64,000 nt of DNA from positions 5,635 to 69,634 of the forward strand of contig JAPLLR010000017.1 of assembly GCA_026387455.1 (NCBI GenBank), given 5' to 3'. The stretch comes from Candidatus Omnitrophota bacterium (GTDB taxonomy: Bacteria; Omnitrophota; Gorgyraeia; Gygaellales; Profunditerraquicolaceae). Shown here piece after piece: positions 1-14,204 of this stretch. The translations under genes and the position numbers were made by a program. Below the pieces are notes generated by a model. That model worked only from the letters and a program-made list of their open reading frames with translations, was not told the DNA's origin and did no database searches. The stretch's first letter is position 1, and the number at the start of each line of letters is the position of its first letter.

Positions 1-3000
1 GCTAGTAATTCCCCCTACCCCGGCAGTCAGAGTAACATTATTAGCACCATTATTGGCATTAAGCCTAGCGGTCGCGCCGGTGAAAACAATGGTACCCGTA
101 GTGATACTATCATTATTGGTAGTATTGACCAACCCGTTAAATGTAGTTGTCCCGCTACCGGCGACCTGATTTAAGGCCGTGGCAGTAATCGCTACTAAAT
201 TCGCGTTACCTGCGCTGTTAATAGTGATAGTGCCAAGTGGCGTACCACCGCCTACTATACCATTAAGATTTATGGTGCCAGTGCCGGCAGTGAGGCCAAG
301 GGTTTCTGTGTAGGCTGTAGTTGCGTCTATGGTGTTATTAAAGGTGATATCTCCAATACCTGCTCCTGTATTTAAGAGAACATTCCCGGTAAGAGTAACT
401 GCGGTAGCGAAGCTAATATCGTCATTAGTAGTAGTGATATCTCCGGCAGTAGATACTGCGCCTGCACCGTTCTGGGTGAAAGAGCCGTCGAGGGTCATGT
501 CACCGGCGCCTGCAATGGTCAATAATCCGGCATTAGTCACTTCAACAATGCCCCCGCCTGCTGTATTCACCGTATTATTAAAGGTAAAGGCATTACCGGT
601 AAGGTCAACTCCGCCTGCGGCATTGGTATCCAGTGCGCCATTAAATGTGGTGGTGCCTGTACCGGCGACTTGTGTTAGGGATGAAGCTCTGATTGCTGCA
701 GCAGTAACGTCAGTTGTGCTTGTTACGGTAACGGCCCCTAATCTAGTTCCGCCGCCCACCGCACCGGTAAAGGTAATATTTCCGGTACCGGCAGTCAGGC
801 CTAAAGTCTCTGTACCGGCTACAGTTCCGTTGAGGGTATTATTAAAGATGACATTGCCTATGCCCGCGCCAGTATTTAAGAGAACGTTCCCAGTGAGAGT
901 GACTGCGGTAGCAAAACTGATGTTGTCATTAGTAGTAGTGATATCTCCGGCAGTAGATACTGCGCCTGCACCGTTCTGGGTGAAAGAGCCGTCGAGGGTC
1001 ATGTCACCGGCGCCTGCAATGGTCAATAATCCGGCATTAGTCACTTCAACAATGCCGCCGCCTGCTGTATTCACCGTATTATTAAAGGTAAAGGCATTAC
1101 CGGTAAGGTCAACTCCGCCTGCGGCATTGGTATCCAGTGCGCCATTAAAGGTAGTTGTACCCGTGCCGCCAAGCTGGGTGATGGTTACACTGGAAATATC
1201 GGTTGCGGTTACATCATTTGCTCCTGTGATAGTAAGATTGCTTAATCTGGCTCCGCCGCCTACTATACCTCCAAAGACGATATCGCCTGTGCCGGAGTTA
1301 AGACCAAGATCAAATCCGCCGTTAACTGTGTTTGTAAAATTAATATTACCTATCCCGGCTACAGACTGGGTGCTAAGAAGGACATTCCCGGTTAAAGTAA
1401 CTGGAGTTAAAAAGCTGATAAGATCATTAGAAGTAGTAATGTCTCCAGCAGTGGAAGCCGCGCCTGCGCCGTTCTGGGTGAAGGCGCCGTCGAGAACCAT
1501 ATCACCGCTAGCAGCATCAATTGTTAGAAGACCTCCGTTGGTAAAGGTCACTTTTCCGCCTGCAGTAGTGGTAATAGCCGGGCCAGCGCCTACGCCTATA
1601 ACGTGGATAGCTCCGCCGGAAATGAATGTTAAATCTTTGTTCTGGGTTAGATTAACGTTTCCGACCGCTGCACCATTTGCGATTGTTATAGCACCGCTTG
1701 CTGCGTCGCCTATAGTCATAGGAATAGCGATAGAGTCGAGAAATAAATCAGTAATATTAAAACCTTTTGTGTTGTCTTCAACACCGATAAGCGTTCCTGG
1801 GGTGTACGGCGCTATAGTTATGGCAGAAGCTGTAATAAGGCCTACATTAAAGGTAAAGGCGTCAGAGACAAATCTAATAGCAAAGGCGCCTGCATTTATC
1901 GTAATAGCAGGACCCGGGTCGCCTAAGACCATTCCGGTTTTTGATCTTAAGTCTATGCCATAACCACCGACTGATCCGGTAGTGGTTATATTATCGGCAA
2001 ATGTTGTTATGCCCTGACTATCTGCTTGGTCAATATTTGTCGCTCTGACAGCACCGCTAAATGTAACATCGTTAGCCTGAATAATATTCAAAGCATTTAG
2101 AGGCCTGGTAGCGCCTACTGCGCCGGTAAGAGTAATATTACCGCCGGTGACCGCTATCGCGTCAAAACCCGCGTTAAGGGTCAGGCTCTTGGCTCCACCT
2201 AAAGTGCTGTCTGTTGTGCCTAAAATCGAAATATCTGCGCCGGCTTCTGAACCTACTGCCCCGGCAAAGGTTGTATCTAAGGTAACCAGGGCTGCGCCTA
2301 CTTCCACGCTATCTAAAATATTAATTGCAACCCGGTCAGTGATGATATCGGCGTTTAAGGTAGTGGTTGCGCCCGAGCCATCGAGAGTAAGTGTCCCGCT
2401 ACCATGGTCATCTTGAATCGTACCATTAACTATAATTGCTCCGACAAAGATACCGAAAACGACAGGTGACTGAATTGTCGCAGGATCATGGAAAGTAATC
2501 GCATTTATGGTGATAACACCACAACTATTGGTGCGGCCGATTGTAATAAGGGGGTGCCCATCGGCAATCTGTCCAAGTTCTGGGGCTGTCAGGTTTAAAG
2601 CACCTACCACGCCACCTGGACCAGCAATATCAATATCTCTAGTTACAGTTGAGGGTTGAAGCGTAATCGCGCCTGTGCCGTTGATAGCAGCGTTAAGCTC
2701 CATTTCATCAGCGGTCAGCGTAAATGTGTTTGTGGCGCCAGTCGTGATCCCATTAAGAGTAATCGTATTAGTTCCCGCATCAAGAGTAGTTGTGCCATCT
2801 AATGTCAGGGCACCTAAAGTCATAGCTGTGTTAGTGGTGTTTACTGTACCTCTTGTATGCGTGGCGCTTGGACCGGCGTCGGTCTGTAATCCTCCGGTAA
2901 AGGTAGAACTGTCAGTGTTGTCATTACCTAGGGTTACGGTACCAGTGTTTAAGAAATTCGTAGCTCCGGCAATAGTATTGGTGCCGCCGGTAAAAGAGAT

Positions 3001-6000
3001 ATTGTAAGCGTTGGCAGTGCCGGCTGCGGACATCCCGGCACTGGCCGTGGTATTATCCAGGAAGGCGACTGTGGAAGCCGCGGCAGAATCGCTGATGGTA
3101 ATGGTGTTGGCGGTAAAGGTATTGCCGAAGGTCGCTCCGCCGGAATTAGTGATAGTGACAACGCCGATATCAGTGCCCACAGTACCGGTGACAGAGACTG
3201 CTCCGGTAAGATTAAAGGTAACATTGGACGCTGGTAATCCGGCTGTGCCGGCGATACTGGTCACAGTTGCACCGCCCGAACCGCCGGTGCCTAAGGTCAA
3301 GGTAACGCCGTCGCTTAAAGTGGTATTACCCAGGGTGATCAGGCCGCTTCCCGCGGCCAGAGTGCTGGAGCCGGTTACCGAGGTAGTGTTGTTTAAGTTG
3401 ATCGGCGCGTTAGTAGAGGAGATATTGCCATCGATAGCGTTGATTCCGGCAGTGTGAGTTAGGCCGCCGGCAAAGGCCGAGGCATCGCCGCCGCCGTTAC
3501 CGAAGGTGACACTACCGGTATTAGCCAGTGTAGTCGCCCCGACCCCGGCAATAGTATTGGTGCCGCCGGTAAAAGAAATATTGTAAGCGTTGGCAGTGCC
3601 GGCTGCGGACATCCCGGTTAAGGCCGTGGTATTATCCAGGAAGGCGACTGTGGAAGCCGCGGCAGAATCGCTGATGGTAATGGTGTTAGCGGTCACTGAA
3701 TTACTAAACGTAGCGCCGTTACTGCTAATAATAGTTAATACATTTATAGGCGAAACTCCGCCTCCTGCGCCCACCGCACCAGTTAAACTTATAACTCCAG
3801 TAGTTCCTGCTCTTAAACTTAGATTCCGGTTTGCTCCTGAACTATCAGTAGTACCGGTAATGCCGATAGCCGCTCCTGTTACAGTTCCGCCGACATTGGT
3901 GGTATCAAGTAATATATTCGCACCGAGCAATACATTATCGCTGATGTTTATCGCCCTGCCTGCGGTAGTGATATTGGCATTAAGAGTAGTAGCTCCCCCT
4001 CCGTCAATAGTAACAGAAGCATCATCTGAACCTGTAACCAGACCATTAACTGTGATAGAACCGCTGGGTGATTGAATAGTCACCGGATCATAAAAAGTGA
4101 CATTACCAGCTAGTACGCTTACCGTGATAAGCCCTGATGTGTCTAAGCGACCGATGGTAATCGAGCTGAATCCATTCTTCAAAGCCAAAATGTCCGCTGC
4201 GGATAAGTCCAGTATACCCGCACCTCCAGCTATACCTATACTTGTAGCTGCGGCTGAGGGCTGAAGAAGAATGGTGCTAGAGCCGGTCACGGAATTCGCG
4301 CCGCCCAGTAAATCTATCTCATCGGCAGTAAGAATCAAAGCATTTGCTCCGGCAGCCAAATTATTATTCACCGTTACAGTCGCCGTTCCGGCGTTGATAG
4401 TGACAGGACCTCCTAAACTTACCGGAGTATTTGCAGCAAAGGTAATATTGTTGTTAGTAGTTGTCAGATCTCCGTTCAAGGTCACGGTTCCGCCTGAACC
4501 CGTGGTATAAGTCTGGGTATTGGTGGTACGCGTAGCCTGCATCCCTATAGTCCCATTAGTCCCGCCAGCTCCTCCGGTAGTAGTAATGCTTAAATCATCT
4601 ACATAAGAGCCACCAGCATTGCTTAAGGCCACGCTTGTTACATTGCCTCCGGCTGAGCCGGCATTAGTAGTCGCGGTATTTAATGTAAGGTCGCGATTTG
4701 CCGCGTTCGCCGATACACCTGTGCCTGCCAGAGTAATCCCGCCAGCAGAGGCATTATTATCCTGCTCAGTATCAATAGTTATACTTGCCCCTAATCGGAT
4801 ATCTCCGGTCAAACTCACACTGCTCAGATCGCCATTAGTATCCACTAAGATATTATTACCCAGAGTAATCGTTCCGTCTATAGCAGCATCGGTAGTTACG
4901 GAAAAATCATTAATATACTTATCCCCGCCAGCATTATTATCCACTAAACCGATGGTCACTGCTCCGCCTGAGGCATCGGCAAAACTGGTAGAAGCATCGA
5001 TATTAAAATCATAGCCTACAGCATTAGCATAAATATTGGAGGTCCCTAAATTAACTGCTCCGGCATTATTGTTATTTCCTGTTTCCGTATCTATGGTTAC
5101 GCCGTTAGCTCTGATATCGATATCCTTGCCGCCGCTTACCGTAACAGTTCCGTTATCCGTAGAAAGATTTGCTCCCATCCTAAGTGAAGACGGGTTTGTA
5201 AAAGATATCCCCCCGCCTGTTCCGCCGCTAGTATCAATGGCGTTGCCCACTGTCACTACGCCGGTATTATTAATGGTGACACTCCCGCCATTAGTAGTAA
5301 TTGTGCCACTGGTATTATTAAAGGTAGTGCCGCTGGATTGAAAAGCGCCTCCTCCAGTAGTCACAGCTAAACCTAGCGTTACTGCCCCACTATGATTTAG
5401 AGTTACGCCGCCGCCACCTCCACTTGTAGAAATCGTCCCGCTGGTAAGATTTTCGAATGTGGTTCCAGCAGAACTAAAAGTTCCGCCATTGGTGTTAATC
5501 TGATCTCTGATTTGCACACCCGTGGTGTGCGCGCTTAAGTCTACATTGCCGCCATTAGTAGTAATTGTTGCTCCAACCTGACTATCGAAAGATGTTCCGT
5601 CAGAAATAAAACTGCCTGTGCCTGTATTGATGGTATCTCTAATATTTACTGTTCCACTGTGGCCGGTCAAGTCTACATTGCCGCCATTAGTAGTAATTGT
5701 GCCGCCGGCAATAGTTTGAAAATTTGTTCCAGAAGAGCTAAAACTACCTACCCCGCTATTAACCGCCGCACGAATGCCCACCGCACCAGTATGTCCGGTA
5801 AGATTAACATTGCCGCCACTTGTGGTAATCGTACCAGAGGCATTACTGTCAAATGAGGTGCCGCTAGAAGTAAAATTACCACCGCCGGTGGTGATTGCTG
5901 AATTTACATCTACAGTTGTAATGGCAGCCAATGTAACGTTTAATTTACCCGTGCCTCCGGTGTTGGCAATCCCCTGGCTTAGTGTGATACTACCCTGGGC

Positions 6001-7518
6001 GTTTAGTATCAAATTAACGTCAATGTTCCCTGCTGATTTGTTAATAGCACCAGCGGCACCCTGAGTAATATTTCCCGCCTGCGCACCGCCGGCTGTATTA
6101 AGCGTGACGCTAGTGCCTGTATTCAAGTTAGTATTAATAGTACCTGCGTTTACCGTAGAATTAATCCCGGTAGAGCCCCATACTCCACCAGCCCAACCGC
6201 CATTAAAATCAGCGCCATTTATTGTTAGATTATATCCCGGGTCGATATAGAATGTGCCTGCTTTTCCGTTTGGAGCAGTTGCGTCTGCTTTACCATAAAC
6301 TTCAACATGTTCTCTTCCGGATACCTCTATAAAGCCACCATCGCCAGAAAGCGCGCCACCATTGGCATAAATTATTGCGCCCGACCAAAAAAGAGTCGTC
6401 TCAGGCGAATAAACAATTACTCTTCCCCCATTTCCGCTTAATTCAGAATTAGCCGTAGTTAAGCTATCGGAGTCTAATGCTAAAGTATCGCTGGCAAATA
6501 AATCAATATTTCCCCCATCGCCATTTACGCTATCGGCATGAATCTCTCCAAACTGCCCGACTTTTTCGCCGTTGATGGAGACATCACCGCCATCCGTATC
6601 ATCATCCACCGCGGATACACTTATTCCGCCGCTGTTTTGAATAATGCCGGAGCTGTTAGAAGTAAGAATTACCTCGCCGCCGCTATTAACCAATGAGCTG
6701 GCACGGACCGTCCCTTCCTGATTGATAAGATTATCAAATATGCCATCCACTGCTTCAGCCCGAATATTCACTAAGCCACCATCGGCAGTAATGGTGCCTG
6801 AGTTATTTACCCCGTCCTTGATATCCTGGCCGTCCGGCCCAGATACCGCATTCTTAACCTTATCATCCACTGCTGCCGAAATCAGACCACGGCTGTCTAA
6901 GTCCAAGGTCACCGCATCACCTGAGGCCAGATTCACGCTTCCCATGTGCGCCTGAATTACACCTTCATTTCTCACTGCCCCGCCCAGCAAAGAAATCCCC
7001 CCGCCGCTAGCAGCAATAAGCGAACCCTGATTAATAACGAAAGCACTGGTTAACCCCTGATTCTGAAAATGGTAGTTTCCGGATTTAAAATCATCGTTAT
7101 TCATATCCAGGGAAGAAGCCACTAAGCCCGCCACATTGACTGATGAGCCGGGGCCGAAAAGTATGCCGTTAGGATTAATCAGAAAGATATTTCCGTTAGC
7201 GTTAAGGAAGCCAAAAATCTCAGAGATATTGCCTCCTGTCACCCGGTTAAGAGCAACTGAAGACGCGCCAGGCTGCAGGAAATTAACCGTATTACCTGTG
7301 CCGATACTGAAACTATTGTAATTAATAATAGCCCGGTCAGAGGTAGAGATATTTAAAGCGTTGGCCTGCGAGCGGTCAAAGCTGGCATCCCCATAAACCA
7401 CCTGCTCGCCCTGAGGAAGCTCTCCGGCAAATGCCGGGCGAAAAGCGATTCCGCTGGCCATGGCTAAAACCAGGATCACCCGCAAATATTTGTCTAAAGT
7501 AAGTCTATATGTGCCCAT
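1..7518 (-). CDS. Giant TpsA-family exoprotein (filamentous-haemagglutinin-like adhesin or toxin), partial. The C-terminus lies beyond the window start, so at least 2,505 codons are visible. The N-terminus carries a two-partner-secretion (TPS) domain followed by a long beta-helical repeat region.
   Basis: Minus-strand frame (codons at 3k+1..3k+3) was hand-translated at 1-111, 2401-2460, 3001-3060, 5041-5100, 6241-6300 and 7000-7518, and was open every time. N-terminus reads MGTYRLTLDKYLRVILVLAMASGIAFRPAFAGELPQGEQVVYGDASFDRSQANALNISTSDRAIINYNSFSIGTGNTVNFLQPGASSVALNRVTGGNISEIFGFLNANGNIFLINPNGILFGPGSSVNVAGLVASSLDMNNDDFKSGNYHFQNQG, which matches the haemagglutination-activity/TPS domain consensus (NxxxxxxW-SFNIG..E.V.F.QP-S..LNRV...S.I.G.L.ANG.VFLINPNGI.FG). 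Downstream come Gly/Thr/Asn-rich beta-helix repeats (e.g. NVTLTAGVGGITS, DSITTGTIVFTGA). It is absent from the ORF track only because its stop codon lies outside the window. Confidence 0.8.
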   Translation of the reverse strand, partial: MGTYRLTLDKYLRVILVLAMASGIAFRPAFAGELPQGEQVVYGDASFDRSQANALNISTSDRAIINYNSFSIGTGNTVNFLQPGASSVALNRVTGGNISEIFGFLNANGNIFLINPNGILFGPGSSVNVAGLVASSLDMNNDDFKSGNYHFQNQGLTSAFVINQGSLIAASGGGISLLGGAVRNEGVIQAHMGSVNLASGDAVTLDLDSRGLISAAVDDKVKNAVSGPDGQDIKDGVNNSGTITADGGLVNIRAEAVDGIFDNLINQEGTVRASSLVNSGGEVILTSNSSGIIQNSGGISVSAVDDDTDGGDVSINGEKVGQFGEIHADSVNGDGGNIDLFASDTLALDSDSLTTANSELSGNGGRVIVYSPETTLFWSGAIIYANGGALSGDGGFIEVSGREHVEVYGKADATAPNGKAGTFYIDPGYNLTINGADFNGGWAGGVWGSTGINSTVNAGTINTNLNTGTSVTLNTAGGAQAGNITQGAAGAINKSAGNIDVNLILNAQGSITLSQGIANTGGTGKLNVTLAAITTVDVNSAITTGGGNFTSSGTSFDSNASGTITTSGGNVNLTGHTGAVGIRAAVNSGVGSFSSSGTNFQTIAGGTITTNGGNVDLTGHSGTVNIRDTINTGTGSFISDGTSFDSQVGATITTNGGNVDLSAHTTGVQIRDQINTNGGTFSSAGTTFENLTSGTISTSGGGGGVTLNHSGAVTLGLAVTTGGGAFQSSGTTFNNTSGTITTNGGSVTINNTGVVTVGNAIDTSGGTGGGISFTNPSSLRMGANLSTDNGTVTVSGGKDIDIRANGVTIDTETGNNNNAGAVNLGTSNIYANAVGYDFNIDASTSFADASGGAVTIGLVDNNAGGDKYINDFSVTTDAAIDGTITLGNNILVDTNGDLSSVSLTGDIRLGASITIDTEQDNNASAGGITLAGTGVSANAANRDLTLNTATTNAGSAGGNVTSVALSNAGGSYVDDLSITTTGGAGGTNGTIGMQATRTTNTQTYTTGSGGTVTLNGDLTTTNNNITFAANTPVSLGGPVTINAGTATVTVNNNLAAGANALILTADEIDLLGGANSVTGSSTILLQPSAAATSIGIAGGAGILDLSAADILALKNGFSSITIGRLDTSGLITVSVLAGNVTFYDPVTIQSPSGSITVNGLVTGSDDASVTIDGGGATTLNANITTAGRAINISDNVLLGANILLDTTNVGGTVTGAAIGITGTTDSSGANRNLSLRAGTTGVISLTGAVGAGGGVSPINVLTIISSNGATFSNSVTANTITISDSAAASTVAFLDNTTALTGMSAAGTANAYNISFTGGTNTIAGVGATTLANTGSVTFGNGGGDASAFAGGLTHTAGINAIDGNISSTNAPINLNNTTSVTGSSTLAAGSGLITLGNTTLSDGVTLTLGTGGSGGATVTSIAGTAGLPASNVTFNLTGAVSVTGTVGTDIGVVTITNSGGATFGNTFTANTITISDSAAASTVAFLDNTTASAGMSAAGTANAYNISFTGGTNTIAGATNFLNTGTVTLGNDNTDSSTFTGGLQTDAGPSATHTRGTVNTTNTAMTLGALTLDGTTTLDAGTNTITLNGITTGATNTFTLTADEMELNAAINGTGAITLQPSTVTRDIDIAGPGGVVGALNLTAPELGQIADGHPLITIGRTNSCGVITINAITFHDPATIQSPVVFGIFVGAIIVNGTIQDDHGSGTLTLDGSGATTTLNADIITDRVAINILDSVEVGAALVTLDTTFAGAVGSEAGADISILGTTDSTLGGAKSLTLNAGFDAIAVTGGNITLTGAVGATRPLNALNIIQANDVTFSGAVRATNIDQADSQGITTFADNITTTGSVGGYGIDLRSKTGMVLGDPGPAITINAGAFAIRFVSDAFTFNVGLITASAITIAPYTPGTLIGVEDNTKGFNITDLFLDSIAIPMTIGDAASGAITIANGAAVGNVNLTQNKDLTFISGGAIHVIGVGAGPAITTTAGGKVTFTNGGLLTIDAASGDMVLDGAFTQNGAGAASTAGDITTSNDLISFLTPVTLTGNVLLSTQSVAGIGNINFTNTVNGGFDLGLNSGTGDIVFGGIVGGGARLSNLTITGANDVTATDISSVTITQLGGTGTTTFNGALDTNAAGGVDLTGNAFTFNNTVNTAGGGIVEVTNAGLLTIAGAGDMTLDGSFTQNGAGAVSTAGDITTTNDNISFATAVTLTGNVLLNTGAGIGNVIFNNTLNGTVAGTETLGLTAGTGNITFTGAVGGGTRLGAVTVTSTTDVTAAAIRASSLTQVAGTGTTTFNGALDTNAAGGVDLTGNAFTFNNTVNTAGGGIVEVTNAGLLTIAGAGDMTLDGSFTQNGAGAVSTAGDITTTNDDISFATAVTLTGNVLLNTGAGIGDITFNNTIDATTAYTETLGLTAGTGTINLNGIVGGGTPLGTITINSAGNANLVAITATALNQVAGSGTTTFNGLVNTTNNDSITTGTIVFTGATARLNANNGANNVTLTAGVGGITS
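335..1180 (-). repeat. Near-identical tandem duplication (unit about 522 bp, roughly 174 aa) inside the TpsA coding region.
   Basis: Sequence 335-856 recurs almost base-for-base at 857-1180 (e.g. ggtgatatctcc...gtcaccggcgcctgcaatggtcaataatccggcattagtcacttcaacaatgcc). The antisense ORF 329..1963 shows the same peptide twice. Confidence 0.8.
2962..3719 (-). repeat. Pair of dispersed direct repeats of about 170 bp (2962-3132 and 3549-3719) inside TpsA.
   Basis: Both copies contain ggcaatagtattggtgccgccggtaaaaga[g/a]atattgtaagcgttggcagtgccggctgcggacatcccgg...gtggtattatccaggaaggcgactgtggaagccgcggcagaatcgctgatggtaatggtgtt. The antisense ORFs 3011..3457 and 3590..4075 share the N-terminal peptide MAVPAADIP... 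Confidence 0.8.
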
Positions 7519-9194
7519 AGATATACTGTGCTTTTGGAGTTATCCGAAGTCCGGGGATGCAAAGGAAAGCCCCAGTCAGCCTTCAGATAAAAATCTTTCC
7601 AGGGCTGGAACCGAATCCCCCAGCCCGCGCCCATCAAAGTGTCAGAACCGTGTTCTCCCACCAAAGGACTACGCAGCCAACCCTGGCCGTAATCCCAGAA
7701 CCAAACAAACTGGATCTTATCGCGCAATTTATTATTTTTAGGAATTAAGTACACCGGAGTGCGCCATTCAATATTTACGTTATAGCCGCAGTCTCCCATA
7801 AACTCAAGCTCAGGATACCCGCGCACTGTCTGGGCGCCACCAATATAATATTGTTCACCGGCTACCAGCTTGTCCCCCGAATATTGCCCGCGCGCCGAAA
7901 CCAGCAAAAATGAAGACAGCGGCAGGTTTAATCTCCTGCCCACACTAAGCACATACTTGGTAAACTCACCACCCGAACCTAAGCGGCTTGCGTCAGGATC
8001 GTCTTTACCCAAAGCCCCGGCAAAATCCGGAATGCCAAAATCAGTTTCAAAATTCGCATAGGTCGCGCCCCATGCATCAGAACCATCTAAACTAAAATTC
8101 AGCTTGGCCACGCTTACGTTATCACTTGAAGTAGTGGTGCCCAAAAGATAATTCTTACTGTGTTTGATATCTAAACCGAATCCGCCGTTACCGCGGATAT
8201 TCTCGCTATTAATAAAAGGATGCACCACGTATGTCCCAGCTACCCAGGCCCAGCCGTTGGCATCCAACACTTCAAACTCCCTCACCAGGTCAGTCTTGAC
8301 ATAACTGCCATAGCCCCCGATCCGTGTACCCAGATAATTCACCGGCACGTTATAATCCAGGCTTCCGCCGTTAAGCTTCTCGTTGCTTTTTTGGAACCTG
8401 ACGGTAAATATATCGTCAACGCCAAAGAGATTGTTATTGCTGTATCCAACGCCAAAGCGCTGCTTGCCGGTATATTTTGTTCCATAGGTATTATAGTCTA
8501 AGAAAAAGTGCTGTGGATTCTCGTCCGTAACCTTCAAGACCACATCTGTGGTGTCCTTACGCTCACCAGTCAAAAGCACGGCTTTGACTGTACGGTCGGG
8601 ATTGGTATTCAAGCGGCGCACACTCTTCATCAAGTCCTTGTAAAGTACGGTATCTCCTTCGCGGATATGTAATTTCCAACGCACGTATTCCTTATCAAAA
8701 TATTTCCCGCCTTCGATATTAATAGTCCCGATACAACCTTCGACGACTCGGATCTCTATTGTATTATCGATAATCTTTTGCACCGGCACATATACGTATG
8801 TGGTGATATAGCCTTTAGAGCGGTAGAATTTCTGGATAGCGCTGGCTAGCTCATTGAATTCTTTCAAACCCAGGCGCTTATCCTTATACTGGGCTAATAT
8901 AGGTAAAAAGTCCTCAGGAGTAAAAATAGTGACCCCGTTTAAAACAAACTTGACGACCTTCACCCCACCCTCGGTTTTTTCTTCCACCACCGCTTGAGCA
9001 GGCCGCTCATCCTTTACCTCGATCTTTACCTTTGGCTTGATAAGCCCGGACTTTTCCTCCTGCAGGCGCAGAGTATCTTCCATCTGCTGCTCAATAGCCC
9101 CGGCCTTGGTAGAAGCCGGTGCCTGGGCATAAGACGTGGCAACAACACCGAACAGAAACGCCAGAAATAAAATTGCGGTTATTCTTTTATCCAT
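7494..9194 (-). CDS. TpsB outer-membrane transporter of the two-partner secretion system (ShlB/FhaC/HecB family; POTRA domains plus a 16-strand beta-barrel).
   Basis: ORF 7494..9242; the likely start is M17 (MDKRITAILFLAFLFGVVATSYAQA, a signal peptide). It is about 566 aa, as is FhaC. It carries the conserved loop-6 motif YYIGGAQTVRGYPE of ShlB-type barrels. It sits immediately upstream of tpsA, and its stop overlaps the tpsA start by about 25 nt. Confidence 0.7.
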   Translation of the reverse strand: MDKRITAILFLAFLFGVVATSYAQAPASTKAGAIEQQMEDTLRLQEEKSGLIKPKVKIEVKDERPAQAVVEEKTEGGVKVVKFVLNGVTIFTPEDFLPILAQYKDKRLGLKEFNELASAIQKFYRSKGYITTYVYVPVQKIIDNTIEIRVVEGCIGTINIEGGKYFDKEYVRWKLHIREGDTVLYKDLMKSVRRLNTNPDRTVKAVLLTGERKDTTDVVLKVTDENPQHFFLDYNTYGTKYTGKQRFGVGYSNNNLFGVDDIFTVRFQKSNEKLNGGSLDYNVPVNYLGTRIGGYGSYVKTDLVREFEVLDANGWAWVAGTYVVHPFINSENIRGNGGFGLDIKHSKNYLLGTTTSSDNVSVAKLNFSLDGSDAWGATYANFETDFGIPDFAGALGKDDPDASRLGSGGEFTKYVLSVGRRLNLPLSSFLLVSARGQYSGDKLVAGEQYYIGGAQTVRGYPELEFMGDCGYNVNIEWRTPVYLIPKNNKLRDKIQFVWFWDYGQGWLRSPLVGEHGSDTLMGAGWGIRFQPWKDFYLKADWGFPLHPRTSDNSKSTVYLWAHIDLL

Positions 9195-11502
9195 TAGTGA
9201 TCTTAACCAGATAATCCCTAGCCACAGTCTCCTTAGGAGCAAGTATCAGGATCTTAGTAAAATAGTCCTGCGCACTCATATAATCGCCTTCTGAATAAGC
9301 GGCAAAAGCCCGTTGATAAAGATACCCCACCACCCCATCCTGCGTATATTCAGGAGCGCGCTTCTTGGCGGAAACGGATTTTGGCTCTTGTCTTACCGGC
9401 TTGGGCTTTTGCACGGAAATCTTTTTAATAGCGCCTGGTTGCTCTTTAGTATAAGGGGCCGGCTGAGAAGGTTTCTCGCTCCTGGCCATGAGCGCTGCCT
9501 CCTTTTGCTTTGCCTGTTCCCGCTGTTTTTCCATCTGTTCTTCCTGCTTAGCCAGCTGTAGGCGGGCAACTTCCTGCTGCTGAAGCTGCTGCTGACGCTG
9601 CTGCTTGACTACTTTATTCTTAACAACTTCCTGCTGCTTCTGCTGTTTAGCTGCCTGCTGACGGAACTTCTCCTGCCTGGTCAGCTGCTCCTGTTCTAAT
9701 TGCTGACGGTTGGATTCCTCCTGCCAACGCATTTCTTCCTGCTGAGCCAGACGCGCCTGAGACTCATCTTCCCTGACAAGCTTTAATTGATTGGGGATCT
9801 TTTCTTCAAGATAAAGGCGCGCCTGCTGCTGTTTGGAATCCATGCTAAGTATTTGATCGAAACATTCTATTGAAGACTGGTAATCCTGGATATCAAAAGC
9901 GGCCAAAGCCTGGCCGTAAAGGGCTTTGATGTTTTCTTCTCTTAAAGCCTGCGGGATCTTTGTCTGCACAAATTCCTGTGCCTCTAATTCGCCCGGAGAA
10001 AGCGCCAATATCTCTCTAAACTTAGCGTCGGCATAAACAAAATCCCGATTACTGAAATCTCCAAGCGCCTGACTATAAAGAACATTTATCTTTACCAGCT
10101 TGAGTTTCTCCGGAATTTTTACCTGCAGATATTCTTTCGCCTCCTCCTGCGAATTATCTAGCGCCAGAATATCCTTAAAAAGAACCTCTGCCTTGGGATA
10201 ATCCCCGACACTAAAAAACTCAACAGCGTCTTTATAAATATCCTTGATCTTAAGCTGCTTACGCACTTCGGGGATCTTGGCCTGGATGTACTGGATCGCC
10301 TCTGCCTGCGCCGGATCAAGCACCAAAGCCCTGTTGAATATTTCTTCGGCAGCATCATACTGCTGGTTATTGAAAGCTGCAGAGCCATCGTCCAGCAGGC
10401 CTTTTACTTTCTGATCCCTAATCAATCCAGGGATTTTGATTTCCACGTATTCCTTAGCCTCAGCCTGCTTAAGATCTAAAGACAAAATGTCATAGAATAT
10501 CTGCTTTGCCTTATCAAGCTCCTGGTTGTTAAAAGCGGTCAATGCGTCTTTATACAAAACCGCGATCCTCTGCTCTTTAAGCTTCTGCGGAATGCTGACC
10601 TCAAGGTATTCTTTGGCCTTAAACTGGTCCTGGTCAATGGCCAGGATCTCCCTGCAATAATTTGCCGCCTGATCGTAATTAGCGCCGTTAAAAGCCGTAG
10701 CTGCCTGCTGGAAAAGATTATCGATCTTTTCTTTCTTTACGATAAAAGCTATCTTGGCCTCAGCATCATCCCTAATCGCCTTCTGGTCAGGAAATATAGC
10801 CAGCACTTCATTAAACAACTTTACGGCTTTTCCATAATCGCCTATTTCGAAATATTCCAGCCCCTCCTTATAGAGCGACTTTACCTTCTGCTCCTTTACC
10901 AGCTGGGGTATCCGGTCCTGAAAATAATATTTGGCCTCTTTTTCTCCGGGGTCAATGGCCAGGATCGCCTTAAAGATCTCGCTGGCCTGTTCAAAGTTTT
11001 GGCCAAAGAATCGGCTATAGGCCTCCTTATATAGGTAAGCGACCTGATCCTTCTTCTGACGCTCCTTGATCTTATCGGCGCGCTTACTCTCTTTTTCGCC
11101 TTTCGGGCCGCCAATGCGCTCTGCTTTAGTCAGAATATCTATGATCTCCCGCGCCATATTAGCCCTACGCCTTAAATCCTTATCCTTAGTCTCCTGGGCG
11201 ACCTTATTATAAAGAATAAGGGCACTTTCGTACTCACCCAGCTGATAAAGATAATTGGCATCGGCAAACATCTGTTCCGGGGATTTATTCTTGATTTCAA
11301 TAAAGCTTGAGGCGTCCAGCTTGGGCTTGGGCTTAGCCTTGGGCTGCTCTTTGGCAGTGGCTTCAGTAGTAGCCTTTACTTCCGGTGCTTCAGCACAATG
11401 CCCCAAAAGGCACCAGCTAAAGATAAAAACCAGGAACAAAAATCCTAAAATCAGGTATTGGCTCTCTTGAGGATACATAAACGCGCTTGACTGTCTTCTC
11501 AT
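9187..11502 (-). CDS. Secreted repeat protein of about 770 aa. It has at least 7 tandem 53-aa TPR-like repeats, then a Gln/Glu/Lys-rich coiled-coil and basic segment, then a terminal TPR-like unit. It is co-oriented with tpsB and overlaps its start by 8 nt.
   Basis: ORF 9187..11553; the likely start is MRRQSS at 11502, with an AGGAAGG RBS upstream. The N-terminus is a signal peptide (YLILGFLFLVFIFSWCLLGHCAEA). Repeat consensus is xEAKEYLxxKIPxxLKxxKIxxLYxxALxxFxxxDYxxAxxxFxxILxLDxxQ. The C-terminal part contains ...QQEEMRWQEESNRQQLEQEQLTRQEKFRQQAAKQQKQQEVVKNKVVKQQRQQQLQQQ... Confidence 0.55.
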   Translation of the reverse strand: MRRQSSAFMYPQESQYLILGFLFLVFIFSWCLLGHCAEAPEVKATTEATAKEQPKAKPKPKLDASSFIEIKNKSPEQMFADANYLYQLGEYESALILYNKVAQETKDKDLRRRANMAREIIDILTKAERIGGPKGEKESKRADKIKERQKKDQVAYLYKEAYSRFFGQNFEQASEIFKAILAIDPGEKEAKYYFQDRIPQLVKEQKVKSLYKEGLEYFEIGDYGKAVKLFNEVLAIFPDQKAIRDDAEAKIAFIVKKEKIDNLFQQAATAFNGANYDQAANYCREILAIDQDQFKAKEYLEVSIPQKLKEQRIAVLYKDALTAFNNQELDKAKQIFYDILSLDLKQAEAKEYVEIKIPGLIRDQKVKGLLDDGSAAFNNQQYDAAEEIFNRALVLDPAQAEAIQYIQAKIPEVRKQLKIKDIYKDAVEFFSVGDYPKAEVLFKDILALDNSQEEAKEYLQVKIPEKLKLVKINVLYSQALGDFSNRDFVYADAKFREILALSPGELEAQEFVQTKIPQALREENIKALYGQALAAFDIQDYQSSIECFDQILSMDSKQQQARLYLEEKIPNQLKLVREDESQARLAQQEEMRWQEESNRQQLEQEQLTRQEKFRQQAAKQQKQQEVVKNKVVKQQRQQQLQQQEVARLQLAKQEEQMEKQREQAKQKEAALMARSEKPSQPAPYTKEQPGAIKKISVQKPKPVRQEPKSVSAKKRAPEYTQDGVVGYLYQRAFAAYSEGDYMSAQDYFTKILILAPKETVARDYLVKITNG

Positions 11503-11786
11503 ATGCCTTCCTTTTTTATTTATTGTCAACCAAATAATAAATTTAGTTGACAAATCACGACTATCCCTTTACAGGACAATCGTACGGTGACAAACCGCCT
11601 GTTGGATTATATACCAGATTTTACTATTTTGTCAATTGATATTTTTGTTCAAGGTAAGCTGGGTTGCAAGGGATTACGAAAGGAAAATTCTCTCGACGCA
11701 AAAGTGTTTTGAATAAATTATAAATAAGCTGAATTTGCATAATATTTTTAAAAAACTGGTAAAGCATGACATTAACTAGGAAGAAA

Positions 11787-12692
11787 TTAAAACTTATGCT
11801 GGACTAGATAGCGGAATGCGCTAAGGCAGGCTTTGGAGCCTTCCCCGGCAGCAATAATGATCTGTTTCTCCGGAACATCCGTGACATCGCCGGCGGCAAA
11901 TATCCCGGGAATATTAGTTTCGTTACGGCAATTTATAATTATTTCCTGCAGTTGATTTCTTGCTATGGCTTTGGCGAATTCCGAGTTGGGCAGAAGACCT
12001 ATCTCGACAAACACGCCTTGGACGGCAAGGGTTTCCTCTTTTCCTTGCCTCAAAATTTTAATCCCGCTTACAAACTTATCGCCGAGTATCCCGGTCACCT
12101 GAGCGCTGTTTAACACCGTGACCTTGCTATCCACTTCCACCTGCTCGCGCATCACCGCGTCACCACCCAGAGCGTCGGTAATATTAACTAGTGTTACACG
12201 CTTTGCGAACCTTCTCAGCTGCAATACCGCATCCAACGCAGAGTTTCCTCCTCCGATGACCGCTACATCTTTATTAGCGAATATCGGTCCGTCACAGGTA
12301 GCGCAGTAAGTCAGTCCATGGTTCTTGAATTCTTTCTCACCCGTCACGTTCAGCTCTTTGGTCCTTTTTCCGGAAGCGATAATCACAGACCTTGCTTCAT
12401 ATGAGGCCTTGTCAGTAGTAACAATAATGACCTCGCCCGTTTTGCTAATATCCCTGACCACCTCATCCGCCTTAAGCGGAATATCGTATTTACGCATATG
12501 CTCTTCAAACTTGGCAGCCAGCTCCGGGCCGGTAATAAACTGATACCCGGTATAATTCTCGATATCCCCGCTCCAGGCCGCCTGGCCGCCGATATCCTTA
12601 GAGATCACCAGGAATTCAATTTTCTTGCGCGCCGCATAAACTGAGGCAGTGATCCCGGCTGGACCGGCTCCGATAATAATCAAATCATACAT
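11787..12692 (-). CDS. trxB: Thioredoxin-disulfide reductase (pyridine nucleotide-disulfide oxidoreductase).
   Basis: 301 aa. N-terminal FAD motif IIGAGPAG, redox-active CATCDG motif, second GGGNSA dinucleotide-binding motif. Confidence 0.75.
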   Translation of the reverse strand: MYDLIIIGAGPAGITASVYAARKKIEFLVISKDIGGQAAWSGDIENYTGYQFITGPELAAKFEEHMRKYDIPLKADEVVRDISKTGEVIIVTTDKASYEARSVIIASGKRTKELNVTGEKEFKNHGLTYCATCDGPIFANKDVAVIGGGNSALDAVLQLRRFAKRVTLVNITDALGGDAVMREQVEVDSKVTVLNSAQVTGILGDKFVSGIKILRQGKEETLAVQGVFVEIGLLPNSEFAKAIARNQLQEIIINCRNETNIPGIFAAGDVTDVPEKQIIIAAGEGSKACLSAFRYLVQHKF

Positions 12693-12693
12693 T

Positions 12694-12930
12694 TTAAATC
12701 CCTAAAGCGTTCCTGATCTTGCTCACATCGTAACCAACGATAATCACTCCTTCGATATCCAGGACCGGCACGCCCATCTGCCCGGACTTAGCCACCATCT
12801 CTTCAGCAGCTTTTTCATCTTGCCCTACATCAATATCCTCAAAAACGATATTGTTATCTTTTAAAAACTGCTTTGTCCGAATACACCAGGGGCATGTTGG
12901 AGTGCTGTAAACTTTCACTGACTTTGACAT
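12694..12930 (-). CDS. Glutaredoxin-like protein (NrdH/YruB-type, CPWC active site).
   Basis: 78 aa; VKVYSTPTCPWCIRTKQFL...GVPVL thioredoxin-fold signature. Confidence 0.7.
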   Translation of the reverse strand: MSKSVKVYSTPTCPWCIRTKQFLKDNNIVFEDIDVGQDEKAAEEMVAKSGQMGVPVLDIEGVIIVGYDVSKIRNALGI

Positions 12931-12942
12931 CTTCTTCTCTCC

Positions 12943-13419
12943 TTAAGTTCTGGACTTTAAGTCAATAAGCTGTTTTAAATGATGCTGCTCCTGGCGGATC
13001 AATTCATCGATCACTTTTTGGTCATAATCAGGGACGATTTTTTTCATCCCCTCGTAGAAAACAATGGAATCTTCTTCAAACCCGATGCCTCTTTGTATCG
13101 CATCCTCCTTGGTCTTAATTGTCCTTGCGATCTCTTCACCCTTATTTTTCTGAGTAAAGATATGCTCTGCGGCCAGGCTTCTCATGTAAGCGCTGTATTC
13201 ATCAGCATCCAGGCCCTGCGGCTCATATTTTTCAACCTTGTCCAATATCCCCTGAAAAACCTTAACATGCTTCTCTTCTTCTATCGCTAAAAACTCAAAT
13301 ACTTGGCTTGCCGTAGTAGCTTTAAATTGCTTTGCCAACGTATTATAAAAGTCCCTGCCGTTTTTCTCGATCTGTATCCCCAGTTCCACCACTTCACTGG
13401 CAGAAAATATATTTCCCAT
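12943..13419 (-). CDS. Ferritin-like / rubrerythrin-like diiron protein.
   Basis: 158 aa with ExxH-type motifs (LAIEEEKH, LAAEHIF, RQEQHH) typical of rubrerythrin-type four-helix bundles. An AGGAGGG RBS lies immediately upstream. Confidence 0.5.
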   Translation of the reverse strand: MGNIFSASEVVELGIQIEKNGRDFYNTLAKQFKATTASQVFEFLAIEEEKHVKVFQGILDKVEKYEPQGLDADEYSAYMRSLAAEHIFTQKNKGEEIARTIKTKEDAIQRGIGFEEDSIVFYEGMKKIVPDYDQKVIDELIRQEQHHLKQLIDLKSRT

Positions 13420-13473
13420 ATACCCTCCTTGCGCAAAAAGCGCAACACTGGCCTATCCTTTAAGGCCAGGTGT
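13420..13473 (-). promoter_or_regulatory. Conserved structured 5' leader, copy 1. On the mRNA it forms two hairpins directly upstream of the GGAGGG RBS and ATG of the rubrerythrin-like gene.
   Basis: Plus-strand reads accctccttgcgcaaaaagcgcaacactggcctatcctttaaggccaggtgt. TTGCGC-AAAAA-GCGCAA is a perfect hairpin. cactggcc...ggccaggtg forms a second hairpin. The same 55-nt leader recurs at 17680-17734 with a compensatory change. Confidence 0.55.
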
Positions 13474-13507
13474 AGCAGAAAGCTGCACCCCAGCTAAAAG
13501 GTATGCT

Positions 13508-13536
13508 GGGTGCGTCCTTTTTAGGACGCAACACCC
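13508..13536 (-). terminator. Rho-independent terminator candidate after the PNPOx-like gene.
   Basis: gggtgcgtcc-ttttta-ggacgcaacaccc stem-loop, with a U-rich run following on the minus strand. Confidence 0.45.
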
Positions 13537-13559
13537 GCCAATCCTTTATGGCGAGGTAC

Positions 13560-14018
13560 TTACTTAATATTCTTCGGCGTTAAATCCACTATCTCTTCTA
13601 TGTCTATTTCGATCATATATTTAGGGTCAGGCAGAAGCGCTTCCGGATGGGCCTTGTGGCCTTTCTCCTCATGGATATTCCTTAAAAGCCGCTGCGCCAG
13701 CCTCCCGGCAATTTTATCTTCCCAGGCTTTGAGAATATCCGCGGTCAACTCTTCTTTAGACACCAGCCGGGCCTTACCTTTAAGACAGTAACCTGAGAAT
13801 TTATGTTCATTTACCGCGGTAATACTTACGTGGGGATTATGAACCAGATTCTTGTAGGTTTCGGCGTGGTAAACATCCAGAAGAAAGACCTTGCCTTCAA
13901 CTTTAACCTTGATTATATCCTTACAGGCACTGTGGGCATAGCCTTTAGCGTCGATGGTCGAAACGATCACAAACCCCTGATTTGTTAGAAAATTTATTAC
14001 GTCTTGCGAAATCTGCAT
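13560..14018 (-). CDS. Pyridoxamine 5'-phosphate oxidase family (FMN-binding split-barrel) protein.
   Basis: 152 aa; N-terminal pattern VINFLTNQGFVIVSTIDAKGYAH typical of PNPOx-like flavin proteins. Confidence 0.5.
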   Translation of the reverse strand: MQISQDVINFLTNQGFVIVSTIDAKGYAHSACKDIIKVKVEGKVFLLDVYHAETYKNLVHNPHVSITAVNEHKFSGYCLKGKARLVSKEELTADILKAWEDKIAGRLAQRLLRNIHEEKGHKAHPEALLPDPKYMIEIDIEEIVDLTPKNIK

Positions 14019-14022
14019 AGGG

Positions 14023-14202: not shown

Positions 14203-14204
14203 TA

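What the first reader, a model, noticed from the sequence alone, without database searches (positions are those of the whole stretch)
9187..11502. Unusual 53-aa TPR-like repeat / coiled-coil protein as a possible third component of the TPS system
Canonical TPS systems consist of TpsB and TpsA only. Here a secreted protein with at least 7 highly regular 53-aa repeats (xEAKEYLxxKIPxxLKxxKIxxLYxxALxxFxxxDYxxAxxxF) sits upstream of tpsB with an 8-nt overlap. It also has a roughly 100-aa Q/E/K-rich coiled-coil and basic low-complexity tract. It could be a periplasmic chaperone or tether for the megaprotein, or a peptidoglycan or outer-membrane spanning accessory. Four TTGTCAA/TTGACAA half-sites in the upstream 230-bp intergenic region (11520-11640) look like operator sites for this operon.
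Basis: inference. Interest (0 to 1): 0.55.

Follow-up and report, generated by a model that had tools for sequence, protein, structure and literature searches.

The report
Helical-repeat third partner of two-partner secretion
A secreted, rod-like helical repeat protein is encoded directly in front of nearly every member of one lineage of bacterial "two-partner" secretion systems, so it is probably an undescribed third partner that helps export very large surface proteins.

Summary
Window 9187-11502 (minus strand) encodes a 771-aa protein with a signal peptide. It has eight gap-free 53-aa TPR-like units plus a ninth at the C-terminus, an ~80-aa Q/E/K-rich helix and a basic, proline-rich disordered tract. 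Its stop overlaps the tpsB start by 8 nt, and tpsB overlaps a >2,500-aa tpsA by 25 nt.

The window is from a Candidatus Omnitrophota genome. Ten of 11 informative loci encoding a relative have tpsB immediately downstream, in several different upstream contexts. Conversely, 25 of 46 metagenomic tpsB relatives have a gene with the same ~88-aa N-terminal module directly upstream, and 8 more have a truncated copy at a contig end.

That module marks the family. The rest is either a rod of 53-aa units (6-16) or a highly charged K/E/R/Q/A-rich helical rod.

No curated family, solved structure or paper searched describes it.

The "third component" idea is well supported. The mechanism, a periplasmic scaffold or holdase docked on TpsB, is inferred.

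The "operator half-sites" are not supported. One is the -35 box of a conserved consensus promoter. Two are the arms of a 5'-leader hairpin.

This is a new variant of a known system, of moderate interest.

The parts
11606..11635 (-). Sigma-70-type promoter: TTGACA (11635-11630), 18-nt spacer, TATAAT (11611-11606).
   Evidence: A 12/12 consensus match, the best in the 7300-12000 scan. TTGACAAA...TG(G/T)TATATAATCC is conserved in L008, L009 and the more distant L001.
11523..11598 (-). Structured 5' leader of about 96 nt with three predicted hairpins, at about 11598-11584, 11583-11557 and 11553-11523. The third hairpin has the TTGTCAAC/GTTGACAA arms.
   Evidence: The 13-nt inverted repeat is 92% complementary. 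RNAalifold on three close relatives gives -27.2 kcal/mol. In L009, A-to-G changes on one arm leave G-U pairs. The region is absent from the more distant L001.
9187..11502 (-). Accessory gene: a 771-aa secreted all-alpha repeat protein, first gene of the operon.
   Evidence: It is 100% identical to a protein annotated only as 'tetratricopeptide repeat protein' from a Candidatus Omnitrophica MAG.
11392..11502 (-). Signal peptide (aa 1-37): two Arg, a hydrophobic core, then ...GHCA|EAP.
   Evidence: Read from the sequence. Relatives have classic FSYA|AD and FSFA|LD sites, and the Cys is not conserved. AlphaFold2 predicts a helix at 14-34 followed by a disordered linker.
11053..11316 (-). N-module (aa 63-150), the family marker. 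Core motif: s-D-F-I-x-I-K-x-x-x-P...D-A-x-x-L-x-x-x-G-x-Y-E-x-A-L-x-x-Y-N...D...D-K.
   Evidence: It is the most conserved block in alignment A1. Exactly one copy per protein is found in both accessory subtypes, at E = 1e-20 to 1e-38. Only 22 hits at E <= 1e-3 were found among 1.84 billion representative proteins. Its only relatives in the PDB are generic TPR proteins.
9775..11046 (-). Eight tandem 53-aa TPR-like units (aa 153-576). Each is a short helix (~14 aa) plus a long helix (~32 aa) carrying the invariant 'K-I-P' kink.
   Evidence: pLDDT mostly above 90; TPR_2 88 bits.
9580..9774 (-). Q/E/K-rich long helix (aa 577-641), continuous with the last repeat.
   Evidence: AlphaFold2 predicts one helix over aa 559-641, with pLDDT falling from about 80 to 50. 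Its length varies and it is replaced by other charged sequence in relatives.
9343..9579 (-). Basic, proline-rich, low-complexity linker (aa 642-720).
   Evidence: pLDDT is below 50. Net charge over aa 576-720 is +10 and pI is 9.9.
9190..9342 (-). Conserved C-terminal TPR-like unit (aa 721-771): P-D-Y-P-K-D-G-V-I-G-Y-L-Y...G-D-Y...A...Y-F-x-K-I-L...P...A...Y-L.
   Evidence: Invariant columns Y729, Y736, G739, A744, F748, P756, A761 and Y764. pLDDT is 87-94. It matches the unit HMM.
7494..9194 (-). tpsB: an Omp85-type transporter of 566 aa. Its start overlaps the accessory stop by 8 nt.
   Evidence: ShlB 107.6 bits and POTRA_2 66.5 bits. Junction read.
1..7518 (-). tpsA (partial, more than 2,506 aa). 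Its start overlaps the tpsB stop by 25 nt. It is strongly acidic and rich in Gly, Thr, Asn and Ala.
   Evidence: TPS domain 107.3 bits. Translation. pI 4.05 and net charge -116. Junction read.

Best explanation
The gene encodes a Sec-exported, elongated all-alpha protein that is a dedicated, co-inherited accessory of one clade of two-partner (type Vb) secretion systems in Candidatus Omnitrophota.

Shown by the data: it is the first gene of an accessory-tpsB-tpsA unit with overlapping reading frames behind one conserved promoter. A family-specific ~88-aa N-module is kept wherever the gene occurs. The rest of the protein is a variable helical rod, made either of 53-aa TPR-like units or of highly charged K/E/R/Q/A-rich helix.

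Inferred: after export it stays in the periplasm. The conserved N-module docks it to the conserved partner, which is the periplasmic POTRA or N-terminal region of TpsB, or the TPS domain of TpsA. The rod then provides a long multivalent surface that holds or guides the unfolded, very long, acidic TpsA chain between the Sec translocon and the TpsB pore.

This would be comparable in logic to BamD on BamA, to the TPR domain of Slam, or to the TPR scaffolds of BcsC, PgaA and AlgK in front of outer-membrane pores.
For: Synteny, accessory to tpsB. The window, L001, L002, L004, L005, L006, L008, L011, L013 and L014 all have the accessory abutting or overlapping tpsB, followed by tpsA where the contig reaches. 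Four different upstream contexts occur among these ten loci. A generic TPR hit lacking the N-module (P0017, L007) is not next to TPS genes.

Synteny, tpsB to accessory. Of 46 metagenomic tpsB relatives, 25 have an N-module ORF directly upstream. Eight more have a truncated TPR-type or charged ORF abutting tpsB at a contig end.

Co-divergence. Accessory identity tracks TpsB identity: 87 vs 94%, 45 vs 65%, 38 vs 55%, and N-module only vs 38%.

Translational coupling. The overlaps are 8 nt and 25 nt. There is one conserved 12/12 promoter and no convincing internal terminator.

Export. Signal peptides with A-x-A-type sites occur across the family.

Shape. AlphaFold2 gives alternating helices of about 32 and 14 aa at pLDDT above 90. 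pTM is 0.34, and Foldseek TM-scores to superhelical TPR proteins are at most 0.10. I read this as an extended, non-superhelical shape.

Substitution by a fused domain. A sister subclade has no separate accessory. There TpsB itself carries a ~470-aa N-terminal periplasmic extension, which suggests the accessory acts on the periplasmic side of TpsB.

Precedent for the repeat type. Distantly similar single-TPR-plus-helix arrays are fused to a secretin fragment (P0021); an N-terminal region of P0019 that looks beta-rich by eye carries a similar array.

Knowledge gap. A TPS review names no dedicated periplasmic chaperone beyond DegP.
Against: There is no direct evidence of localisation, binding or effect on secretion.

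One family member with the full architecture (P0032, L015) is followed by a SurA_N-like gene, not tpsB. The sequence upstream of it is missing.

The window protein is nearly neutral (pI 7.6, net +1), so a simple electrostatic holdase for the acidic TpsA is not supported for this subtype.

In most relatives the rod is charged helix rather than a TPR groove. That weakens a classical model in which peptide binds in a TPR groove.

All loci come from one lineage, so part of the synteny reflects vertical inheritance.
Confidence: 0.55

Rival explanations
1. Envelope anchor or spacer. The protein does not handle the substrate. It ties or positions TpsB relative to the peptidoglycan or inner membrane, acting as a structural strut, in the way TolA domain II or CpoB-type helical proteins work in the periplasm.
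For: In the sister subclade, TpsB is fused to three repeats that I read by eye as SH3b-like, a domain type usually associated with cell-wall binding. These are joined by P/A/V/K-rich linkers, and there is no separate accessory. The charged-rod subtype (63-77% K/E/R/Q/A) resembles periplasm-spanning helices. The window protein also has Lys/Pro-rich linkers.
Against: Family members range from 310 to about 1,100 aa, which is hard to reconcile with a fixed-distance strut. No peptidoglycan-binding, TolA or OmpA-like domain is detected. There is no membrane anchor, and the signal peptides look cleavable.
Confidence: 0.2
2. Gatekeeper or retention factor. The protein binds TpsB or the periplasmic portion of TpsA to hold the giant protein on the cell surface, or to delay its release until a signal such as prey or host contact. 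This is analogous in logic to the periplasmic retention of the FhaB prodomain or the CdiA C-terminal half.
For: Its position as first gene, translationally coupled to tpsB, suggests TpsB-like stoichiometry rather than chaperone excess. The conserved docking-type N-module is paired with a variable rod. Omnitrophota are proposed to use very large surface proteins for cell-cell attachment.
Against: Nothing in the sequence specifically indicates signal sensing or regulated release. This reading is not distinguishable from the scaffold model with the data available.
Confidence: 0.12
3. Co-secreted surface component. The repeat protein is itself exported across the outer membrane and forms part of the extracellular fibre or coat together with TpsA.
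For: It has a signal peptide and a rod-like repetitive architecture typical of surface proteins. Its repeat number varies strongly between relatives.
Against: It has no TPS secretion domain, which TpsB transporters require. It is all-alpha, whereas known TpsB substrates are beta-helical and fold outside the cell. The conserved N-module looks like a docking element, not a secretion domain.
Confidence: 0.08
4. Unrelated housekeeping TPR protein that merely happens to lie next to the TPS genes.
For: Databases call it only 'tetratricopeptide repeat protein'. One relative (L015) is not followed by tpsB.
Against: Gene order is conserved in 10 of 11 and in at least 25 of 46 loci, across TpsB identities of 33-94% and across different flanking genes. 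The genes overlap. The N-module is extremely rare outside this context.
Confidence: 0.03

Closest known systems
Two-partner secretion (type Vb) systems with an extra gene: HMW1C/EtpC glycosyltransferases, BcpO in Burkholderia bcpAIOB, CdiI immunity proteins
   Same: An additional gene is co-encoded with tpsB and tpsA and is needed for or linked to the system.
   Different: Those partners are cytoplasmic enzymes, a small lipoprotein or cytoplasmic protein, or immunity proteins. This one is a 310-1,100-aa secreted helical repeat rod with its own conserved module. It is encoded first in the operon and overlaps tpsB.
BamD (YfiO), the TPR lipoprotein partner of the Omp85 protein BamA
   Same: A TPR-type periplasmic protein working with an Omp85-family barrel that has POTRA domains. 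There is weak local sequence similarity (TIGR03302, E = 3e-7).
   Different: The score is far below the family cut-off (30 vs 81.4 bits). There is no lipobox. BamD has five canonical TPRs in a compact domain, whereas this protein has a 53-aa period and an extended shape.
TPR scaffolds placed before outer-membrane pores: the Slam N-terminal TPR domain, BcsC, PgaA, PelB, AlgK
   Same: The logic is the same: a periplasmic helical-repeat array placed in front of an outer-membrane channel that exports an unfolded polymer. This comparison rests on my knowledge of those systems. The TPR_Slam match is faint (E = 0.018).
   Different: Those arrays are fused to the barrel or are lipoproteins, and they are superhelical 34-aa TPR arrays. 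Here the protein is separate and soluble, has a different repeat geometry, and has a charged-helix alternative.
Periplasmic helper proteins of type V secretion: DegP, SurA, Skp
   Same: The proposed role is the same: keeping an unfolded secretion intermediate competent in the periplasm.
   Different: Those are general chaperones encoded elsewhere in the genome. This one is system-specific, co-encoded with the transporter, and unrelated in sequence.
TolA domain II and CpoB (YbgF)
   Same: Long K/E/A-rich periplasmic helices, and a coiled coil combined with TPR. The resemblance is compositional and is strongest in the charged-rod subtype. The comparison rests on my knowledge of those proteins.
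   Different: There is no TolA-type membrane anchor and no TolA or CpoB domain match. No tol or pal genes are among the genes called immediately around the accessory in the fetched loci.

Membership tests
Two-partner secretion system (type Vb) | A TpsB transporter with ShlB-type POTRA domains and an Omp85/ShlB barrel | tested here: met
   POTRA_2 scores 66.5 bits (cut-off 24) and ShlB 107.6 bits (cut-off 22.7) for window 7494-9242.
Two-partner secretion system (type Vb) | A TpsA substrate with an N-terminal TPS domain, encoded next to tpsB | tested here: met
   The TPS domain scores 107.3 bits (cut-off 33.5). The NPNGILF motif is present. The gene starts at 7518 and overlaps tpsB.
Two-partner secretion system (type Vb) | Only two dedicated components | tested here: not met
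   A third gene is conserved immediately upstream in this clade.
TPR superfamily (Pfam TPR_1/TPR_2 clan) | A sequence match to the 34-aa TPR motif above the curated threshold | tested here: met
   TPR_2 scores 88 bits (cut-off 27) in four stretches, and TPR_1 scores 68.3 bits.
TPR superfamily (Pfam TPR_1/TPR_2 clan) | Contiguous 34-aa repeats that pack into a right-handed superhelix | tested here: not met
   The period is exactly 53 aa. The model alternates helices of about 32 and 14 aa. Foldseek TM-scores to consensus-TPR, OGT, APC and Tom70 structures are 0.05-0.10, with rmsd of roughly 40-70 A.
BamD / YfiO | A match to TIGR03302 above its cut-off, plus a lipoprotein signal (lipobox Cys) | tested here: not met
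   The score is 30 bits against a cut-off of 81.4. The Cys near the cleavage site is not conserved, and relatives have A-x-A-type sites.
SycD/LcrH class II type III secretion chaperones | A match to TIGR02552 above its cut-off, in a small cytoplasmic protein of three TPRs | tested here: not met
   The score is 55.7 bits against a cut-off of 104.8, and no single stretch passes. The protein is 771 aa and has a signal peptide.
Slam (surface lipoprotein assembly modulator) | An N-terminal TPR_Slam domain fused to a DUF560 barrel | tested here: not met
   PF24575 scores 15.9 bits against a cut-off of 35.2. There is no barrel domain in the protein.
HMW1C/EtpC-type third partner of TPS | A glycosyltransferase domain | tested here: not met
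   Only TPR-type Pfam and NCBIfam matches were found, with no enzyme domain.
BcpO | A small accessory protein encoded between bcpI and bcpB | not tested
   No reference sequence was compared. Size, gene order and architecture differ from the description.
New family proposed here (N-module accessory of TpsB) | A signal peptide, one copy of the ~88-aa N-module, and a variable helical rod, encoded immediately 5' of tpsB | tested here: met
   The window protein has the N-module at aa 63-150 and nine units. Thirty-four distinct ORFs share the module.

The most novel reading that the evidence does not exclude
These operons may define a three-component form of type V secretion. In it, a periplasmic helical rod is docked on TpsB through the N-module and physically bridges the Sec translocon and the outer-membrane pore. 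Proteins of several thousand residues would then be threaded across the envelope without a free periplasmic intermediate. That would make this a trans-envelope conduit rather than the textbook two-step, chaperone-free pathway. The fused periplasmic extension on TpsB in the sister subclade would be an alternative solution to the same problem.
Probability: 0.12. Interest if true: 0.8.

Novelty: new variant of a known kind. Interest (0 to 1): 0.55.

Why it matters
Two-partner secretion is taught as the minimal secretion pathway, with one transporter and one substrate. How very long unfolded substrates survive the periplasm is an acknowledged gap.

A system-specific, non-enzymatic periplasmic partner that is conserved across a whole clade would be a concrete candidate for that missing function. 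It would also give a simple three-gene cassette to test in a heterologous host.

The result provides a specific sequence marker, the N-module, for finding such systems. It also adds a repeat architecture that does not behave like a classical TPR superhelix: 53-aa units of one long kinked helix and one short helix.

Finally, it points to a secretion route for large adhesin-like proteins in Omnitrophota. This is an uncultured phylum of very small cells thought to attach to other cells.

Tried and rejected
- **Co-folding.** I tried to co-fold the N-module with TpsB as a linker-joined chimera, using a paired 14-row alignment (A4).
- **Profile search.** A profile search of the 5.8-billion-protein set with the N-module alignment returned a single 82-aa fragment and missed even the seed proteins. 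I treat this as a failure of candidate retrieval, not as a measure of family size.
- **HMM drift.** Unrestricted iteration of the N-module HMM drifted onto the 53-aa units. I replaced it with an iteration that required at least 75% model coverage. That gave exactly one hit per protein and none in the generic TPR control L007.
- **DNA-level repeats.** A tandem-repeat search in the gene found only short CTG and GCTTGG runs.
- **Electrostatic holdase idea.** TpsA is very acidic, but the window accessory is about neutral. The idea is not supported for this subtype.
- **TolA/TonB-like energiser idea.** I rejected it because family members have cleavable-looking signal peptides rather than anchors, no exbBD or tolQR gene is among those called next to the accessory in the fetched loci, and there is no TolA domain.
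- **Lipoprotein idea.** I rejected it because the Cys is not conserved.
- **Operator reading of TTGTCAA.** I rejected it.
- **Literature.** Searches for TPS in Omnitrophota or a TPR accessory of TpsB found nothing relevant. 'TpsC' in Neisseria refers to silent tpsA cassettes, not to an accessory protein.

Full report
**What is in the window**

On the minus strand there is a compact three-gene unit. The first gene (9187-11502) encodes a 771-aa protein. The ORF extends upstream to a TTG at 11553. However, the ATG at 11502, preceded by AAGGAAGG, is the start that is conserved in close relatives.

The second gene (7494-9194) is a TpsB transporter, with POTRA_2 at 66.5 bits and ShlB at 107.6 bits. 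The third gene starts at 7518 and runs off the left end of the window after more than 2,506 codons. It has a TPS secretion domain at 107.3 bits and the NPNGILF motif.

The accessory stop overlaps the tpsB start in ATGGATAA, an 8-nt overlap. The tpsB stop overlaps the tpsA start by 25 nt. An identical protein is deposited as 'tetratricopeptide repeat protein' from a Candidatus Omnitrophica MAG.

**Checking the observation**

The repeats are real and very regular. Eight 53-aa units follow one another without a single indel (aa 153-576), and a ninth unit forms the C-terminus (aa 725-771).

The BLOSUM62 autocorrelation is 1.46 at lag 53 and 1.55 at lag 106. The maximum over all lags in 300 shuffles was -0.24. 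The units are only 33% identical to each other on average, and there is no tandem repeat at the DNA level. They are therefore ancient and maintained by selection.

AlphaFold2, using a 16-sequence alignment, gave a mean pLDDT of 79 and values above 90 over most of aa 150-560. It predicts each unit as a short helix of about 14 residues plus a long helix of about 32 residues. The long helix contains the invariant Ile-Pro. After the repeats come one continuous helix (aa 559-641) through the Q/E/K-rich tract, a disordered basic and proline-rich segment, and a confident three-helix C-terminal unit.

Pfam recognises TPR motifs (TPR_2 at 88 bits). Foldseek, however, finds only local matches to superhelical TPR proteins, with TM-scores of 0.05-0.10. 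I read the protein as a string of single TPR-like units joined by continuous helices, forming an extended rod rather than a classical TPR superhelix. That shape is an inference from the helix pattern, the low pTM (0.34) and the poor superpositions.

**Family and neighbourhood: does tpsB follow the accessory?**

A search of 5.8 billion proteins found 16 clear relatives (E <= 1e-80). After a sharp gap, the remaining hits are generic TPR proteins.

In the alignment, the most conserved part is not the repeats. It is an N-terminal block (aa ~63-150) plus the C-terminal unit. Repeat number and the charged tract vary freely. Signal-peptide cleavage sites of the A-x-A type are common, and the Cys in the window protein is not conserved. 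This indicates a soluble exported protein rather than a lipoprotein.

I fetched the loci of relatives. The window, L001, L002, L004, L005, L006, L008, L011, L013 and L014 all have tpsB abutting or overlapping the accessory gene, followed by tpsA where the contig allows.

Among these ten loci there are four different upstream contexts: oxidative-stress genes, amino-acid biosynthesis with a MerR gene, an Mrp/hydrogenase cluster, and secA-lnt. Other loci have ABC transporters or transposases upstream.

One member with the full architecture (P0032, L015) is instead followed by a SurA_N-like gene. The sequence upstream of it is missing. A generic TPR hit without the N-terminal block (P0017) is nowhere near TPS genes. 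The tally is therefore 10 of 11 informative loci.

**The N-module and a second subtype**

L013 was decisive. Its 742-aa upstream protein has no Pfam domain and is mostly K/E/A/Q-rich helical repeat. Even so, it retains the N-terminal block at 40% identity and overlaps tpsB by 4 nt.

An exhaustive phmmer search of 1.84 billion representative proteins with the 91-aa block found only 22 hits at E <= 1e-3. The module is therefore rare and specific.

I built an HMM of the module and iterated it, accepting only hits that covered at least 75% of the model. This gave exactly one hit per protein and none in the generic TPR control. The conserved core reads s-D-F-I-x-I-K-x-x-x-P...D-A-x-x-L-x-x-x-G-x-Y-E-x-A-L-x-x-Y-N...D...D-K. 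Its only relatives among solved structures are generic TPR hairpins. No NCBIfam or Pfam family reaches its cut-off.

**Family and neighbourhood: does the accessory precede tpsB?**

I scanned metagenome contigs with an alignment of the TpsB proteins. This returned 46 loci at 33-77% identity to the window TpsB. They divide as follows.

| Group | Loci |
|---|---|
| N-module ORF directly upstream of tpsB | 25 |
| TPR-type or K/E/R/Q/A-rich ORF abutting tpsB, cut by the contig end | 8 (L018, L019, L038, L039, L041, L042, L044, L049) |
| No separate accessory; TpsB fused to a ~470-aa N-terminal extension | 6 (L026, L030, L032, L034, L035, L036) |
| PagL-like barrel gene upstream | 1 (L031) |
| Upstream region disrupted by what looks like a transposase gene | 1 (L051) |
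| Too little upstream sequence | remainder |

By eye, the fused extension consists of three SH3b-like repeats separated by P/A/V/K-rich linkers.

The accessories fall into two subtypes.

| Subtype | Composition | Identity of the partner TpsB to the window TpsB |
|---|---|---|
| TPR rod | 6-16 units of 53 aa | >= 51% |
| Charged rod | 63-77% K/E/R/Q/A, 0-2 TPR-like units | 33-42% |

Lengths range from 310 to about 1,100 aa.

**What this implies**

The gene is a conserved component of this clade of TPS operons.

Three observations point to a physical partnership on the periplasmic side of TpsB. First, one small module is conserved while the rest is a helical rod of variable length and chemistry. 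Second, the gene is translationally coupled to tpsB. Third, in a sister subclade a fused periplasmic extension on TpsB takes its place.

My preferred mechanism is as follows. The N-module docks to TpsB or to the TPS domain. The rod acts as a multivalent scaffold or holdase for the unfolded TpsA, which is very long and very acidic (pI 4.05, net charge -116 over 2,506 aa).

This is inference. The window accessory is about neutral, so simple charge attraction is not the explanation for this subtype. The wide range of lengths argues against a fixed-length strut. On the other hand, the apparently SH3b-like domains in the fused variant keep a cell-wall anchor reading alive. A gatekeeper role or a co-secreted surface role cannot be excluded, although the lack of a TPS domain argues against export through TpsB.

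**Upstream region**

The intergenic region contains a perfect sigma-70-type promoter: TTGACA, 18 nt, TATAAT (11635-11606). It is the best match in the region scanned. It is conserved in L008, L009 and the more distant L001.

There are three exact TTGTCAA/TTGACAA heptamers, not four, and the motif is not enriched in the window. One heptamer is the -35 box. The near-match TTTGTCAC sits in a small conserved hairpin at about +1. The other two are the arms of a 13-nt inverted repeat in the ~96-nt leader.

In L009, two A-to-G changes on one arm keep G-U pairs in RNA but break the DNA palindrome. The element is absent from L001. With only three close sequences this is weak evidence, but it favours a leader RNA hairpin over an operator.

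No convincing terminator or strong promoter separates the three genes. The single terminator-like hit lies inside the accessory ORF, and fewer hits were found than chance predicts.

**Comparison with what is known**

Known third partners of TPS systems are glycosyltransferases (HMW1C, EtpC), immunity proteins, or BcpO. The only periplasmic helper discussed for TpsA proteins in the TPS review is the general protease-chaperone DegP. None of these resembles this protein.

BamD, SycD/LcrH and Slam give only sub-threshold, generic TPR similarity. The closest functional analogies are TPR proteins that work with Omp85 barrels or sit in front of outer-membrane export pores.

Papers on Omnitrophota describe giant ORFs and adhesin-like proteins, but not TPS systems or this accessory.

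I therefore class this as a new variant of a known kind of system. The evidence that it is a dedicated component is strong. The evidence for how it works is weak.

Noticed in passing
L036 4603-7650 (also L026, L030, L032, L034, L035): A subclade of TpsB transporters carries a ~470-aa N-terminal extension in the same reading frame. By eye it consists of three SH3b-like repeats (RTGP...V/LCRV...G..VK.L...G.WYKVKIG.CEGWV) separated by Pro/Ala/Val/Lys-rich linkers. There is no separate accessory gene upstream. I did not run a domain search on this extension.
   Followed up: partly
L013 5918-8146; L043, L045, L047, L048, L053-L058, L061 (genes upstream of tpsB): These accessory proteins consist almost entirely of K/E/R/Q/A-rich helical repeats (63-77%) around a single N-module. 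Their partner TpsB proteins begin with a ~40-aa heptad-like amphipathic helix (for example VNSLRTKVNQLEKTVAGQAELIAQQKKILEKI) before POTRA1. That helix could pair with the accessory.
   Followed up: partly
L015 313-3177 and 3443-4297: This is the only full-architecture family member not followed by tpsB. The next gene encodes a SurA_N-like periplasmic chaperone domain protein, followed by a HAMP protein and MurB. The contig ends 313 bp upstream.
   Followed up: no
window 134-1507 and 2966-3718: tpsA contains direct repeats with a period of 498-504 nt that are 69-93% identical at the DNA level. A second pair, 579 nt apart, is 91% identical. These correspond to repeated ~168-aa and ~193-aa modules of the predicted beta-helical protein.
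   Followed up: partly
window 11787-19138 (minus strand): Directly upstream of the TPS operon, in the same orientation, lies a block of oxygen-stress genes. The order from the neighbouring thioredoxin-reductase-like gene onward is glutaredoxin, rubrerythrin, PNPOx-like, flavodiiron-type, FAD/NAD-binding reductase, AhpC/TSA and prismane-type proteins. The same block precedes the operon in L008, L009 and L001. Domain names for most of these come from gene calls in the syntenic loci.
   Followed up: partly
window 37101-41500; L013 1382-5753: secA and lnt are adjacent in both genomes. In L013 they lie immediately upstream of the accessory-tpsB-tpsA unit. In the window they lie about 26 kb away.
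   Followed up: no
P0021 and P0019 (distant TPR hits): Arrays of single TPR-like units separated by K/E-rich helices occur C-terminal to a secretin fragment (P0021). A similar array follows an N-terminal region of P0019 that looks beta-rich by eye. This suggests that this repeat style is often attached to outer-membrane channel proteins.
   Followed up: no
L051 141-1460 (minus strand): A 440-aa ORF that looks like a transposase gene sits directly upstream of a tpsB whose 5' end appears truncated. The accessory may have been lost through an insertion. I did not run a domain search on this ORF.
   Followed up: no
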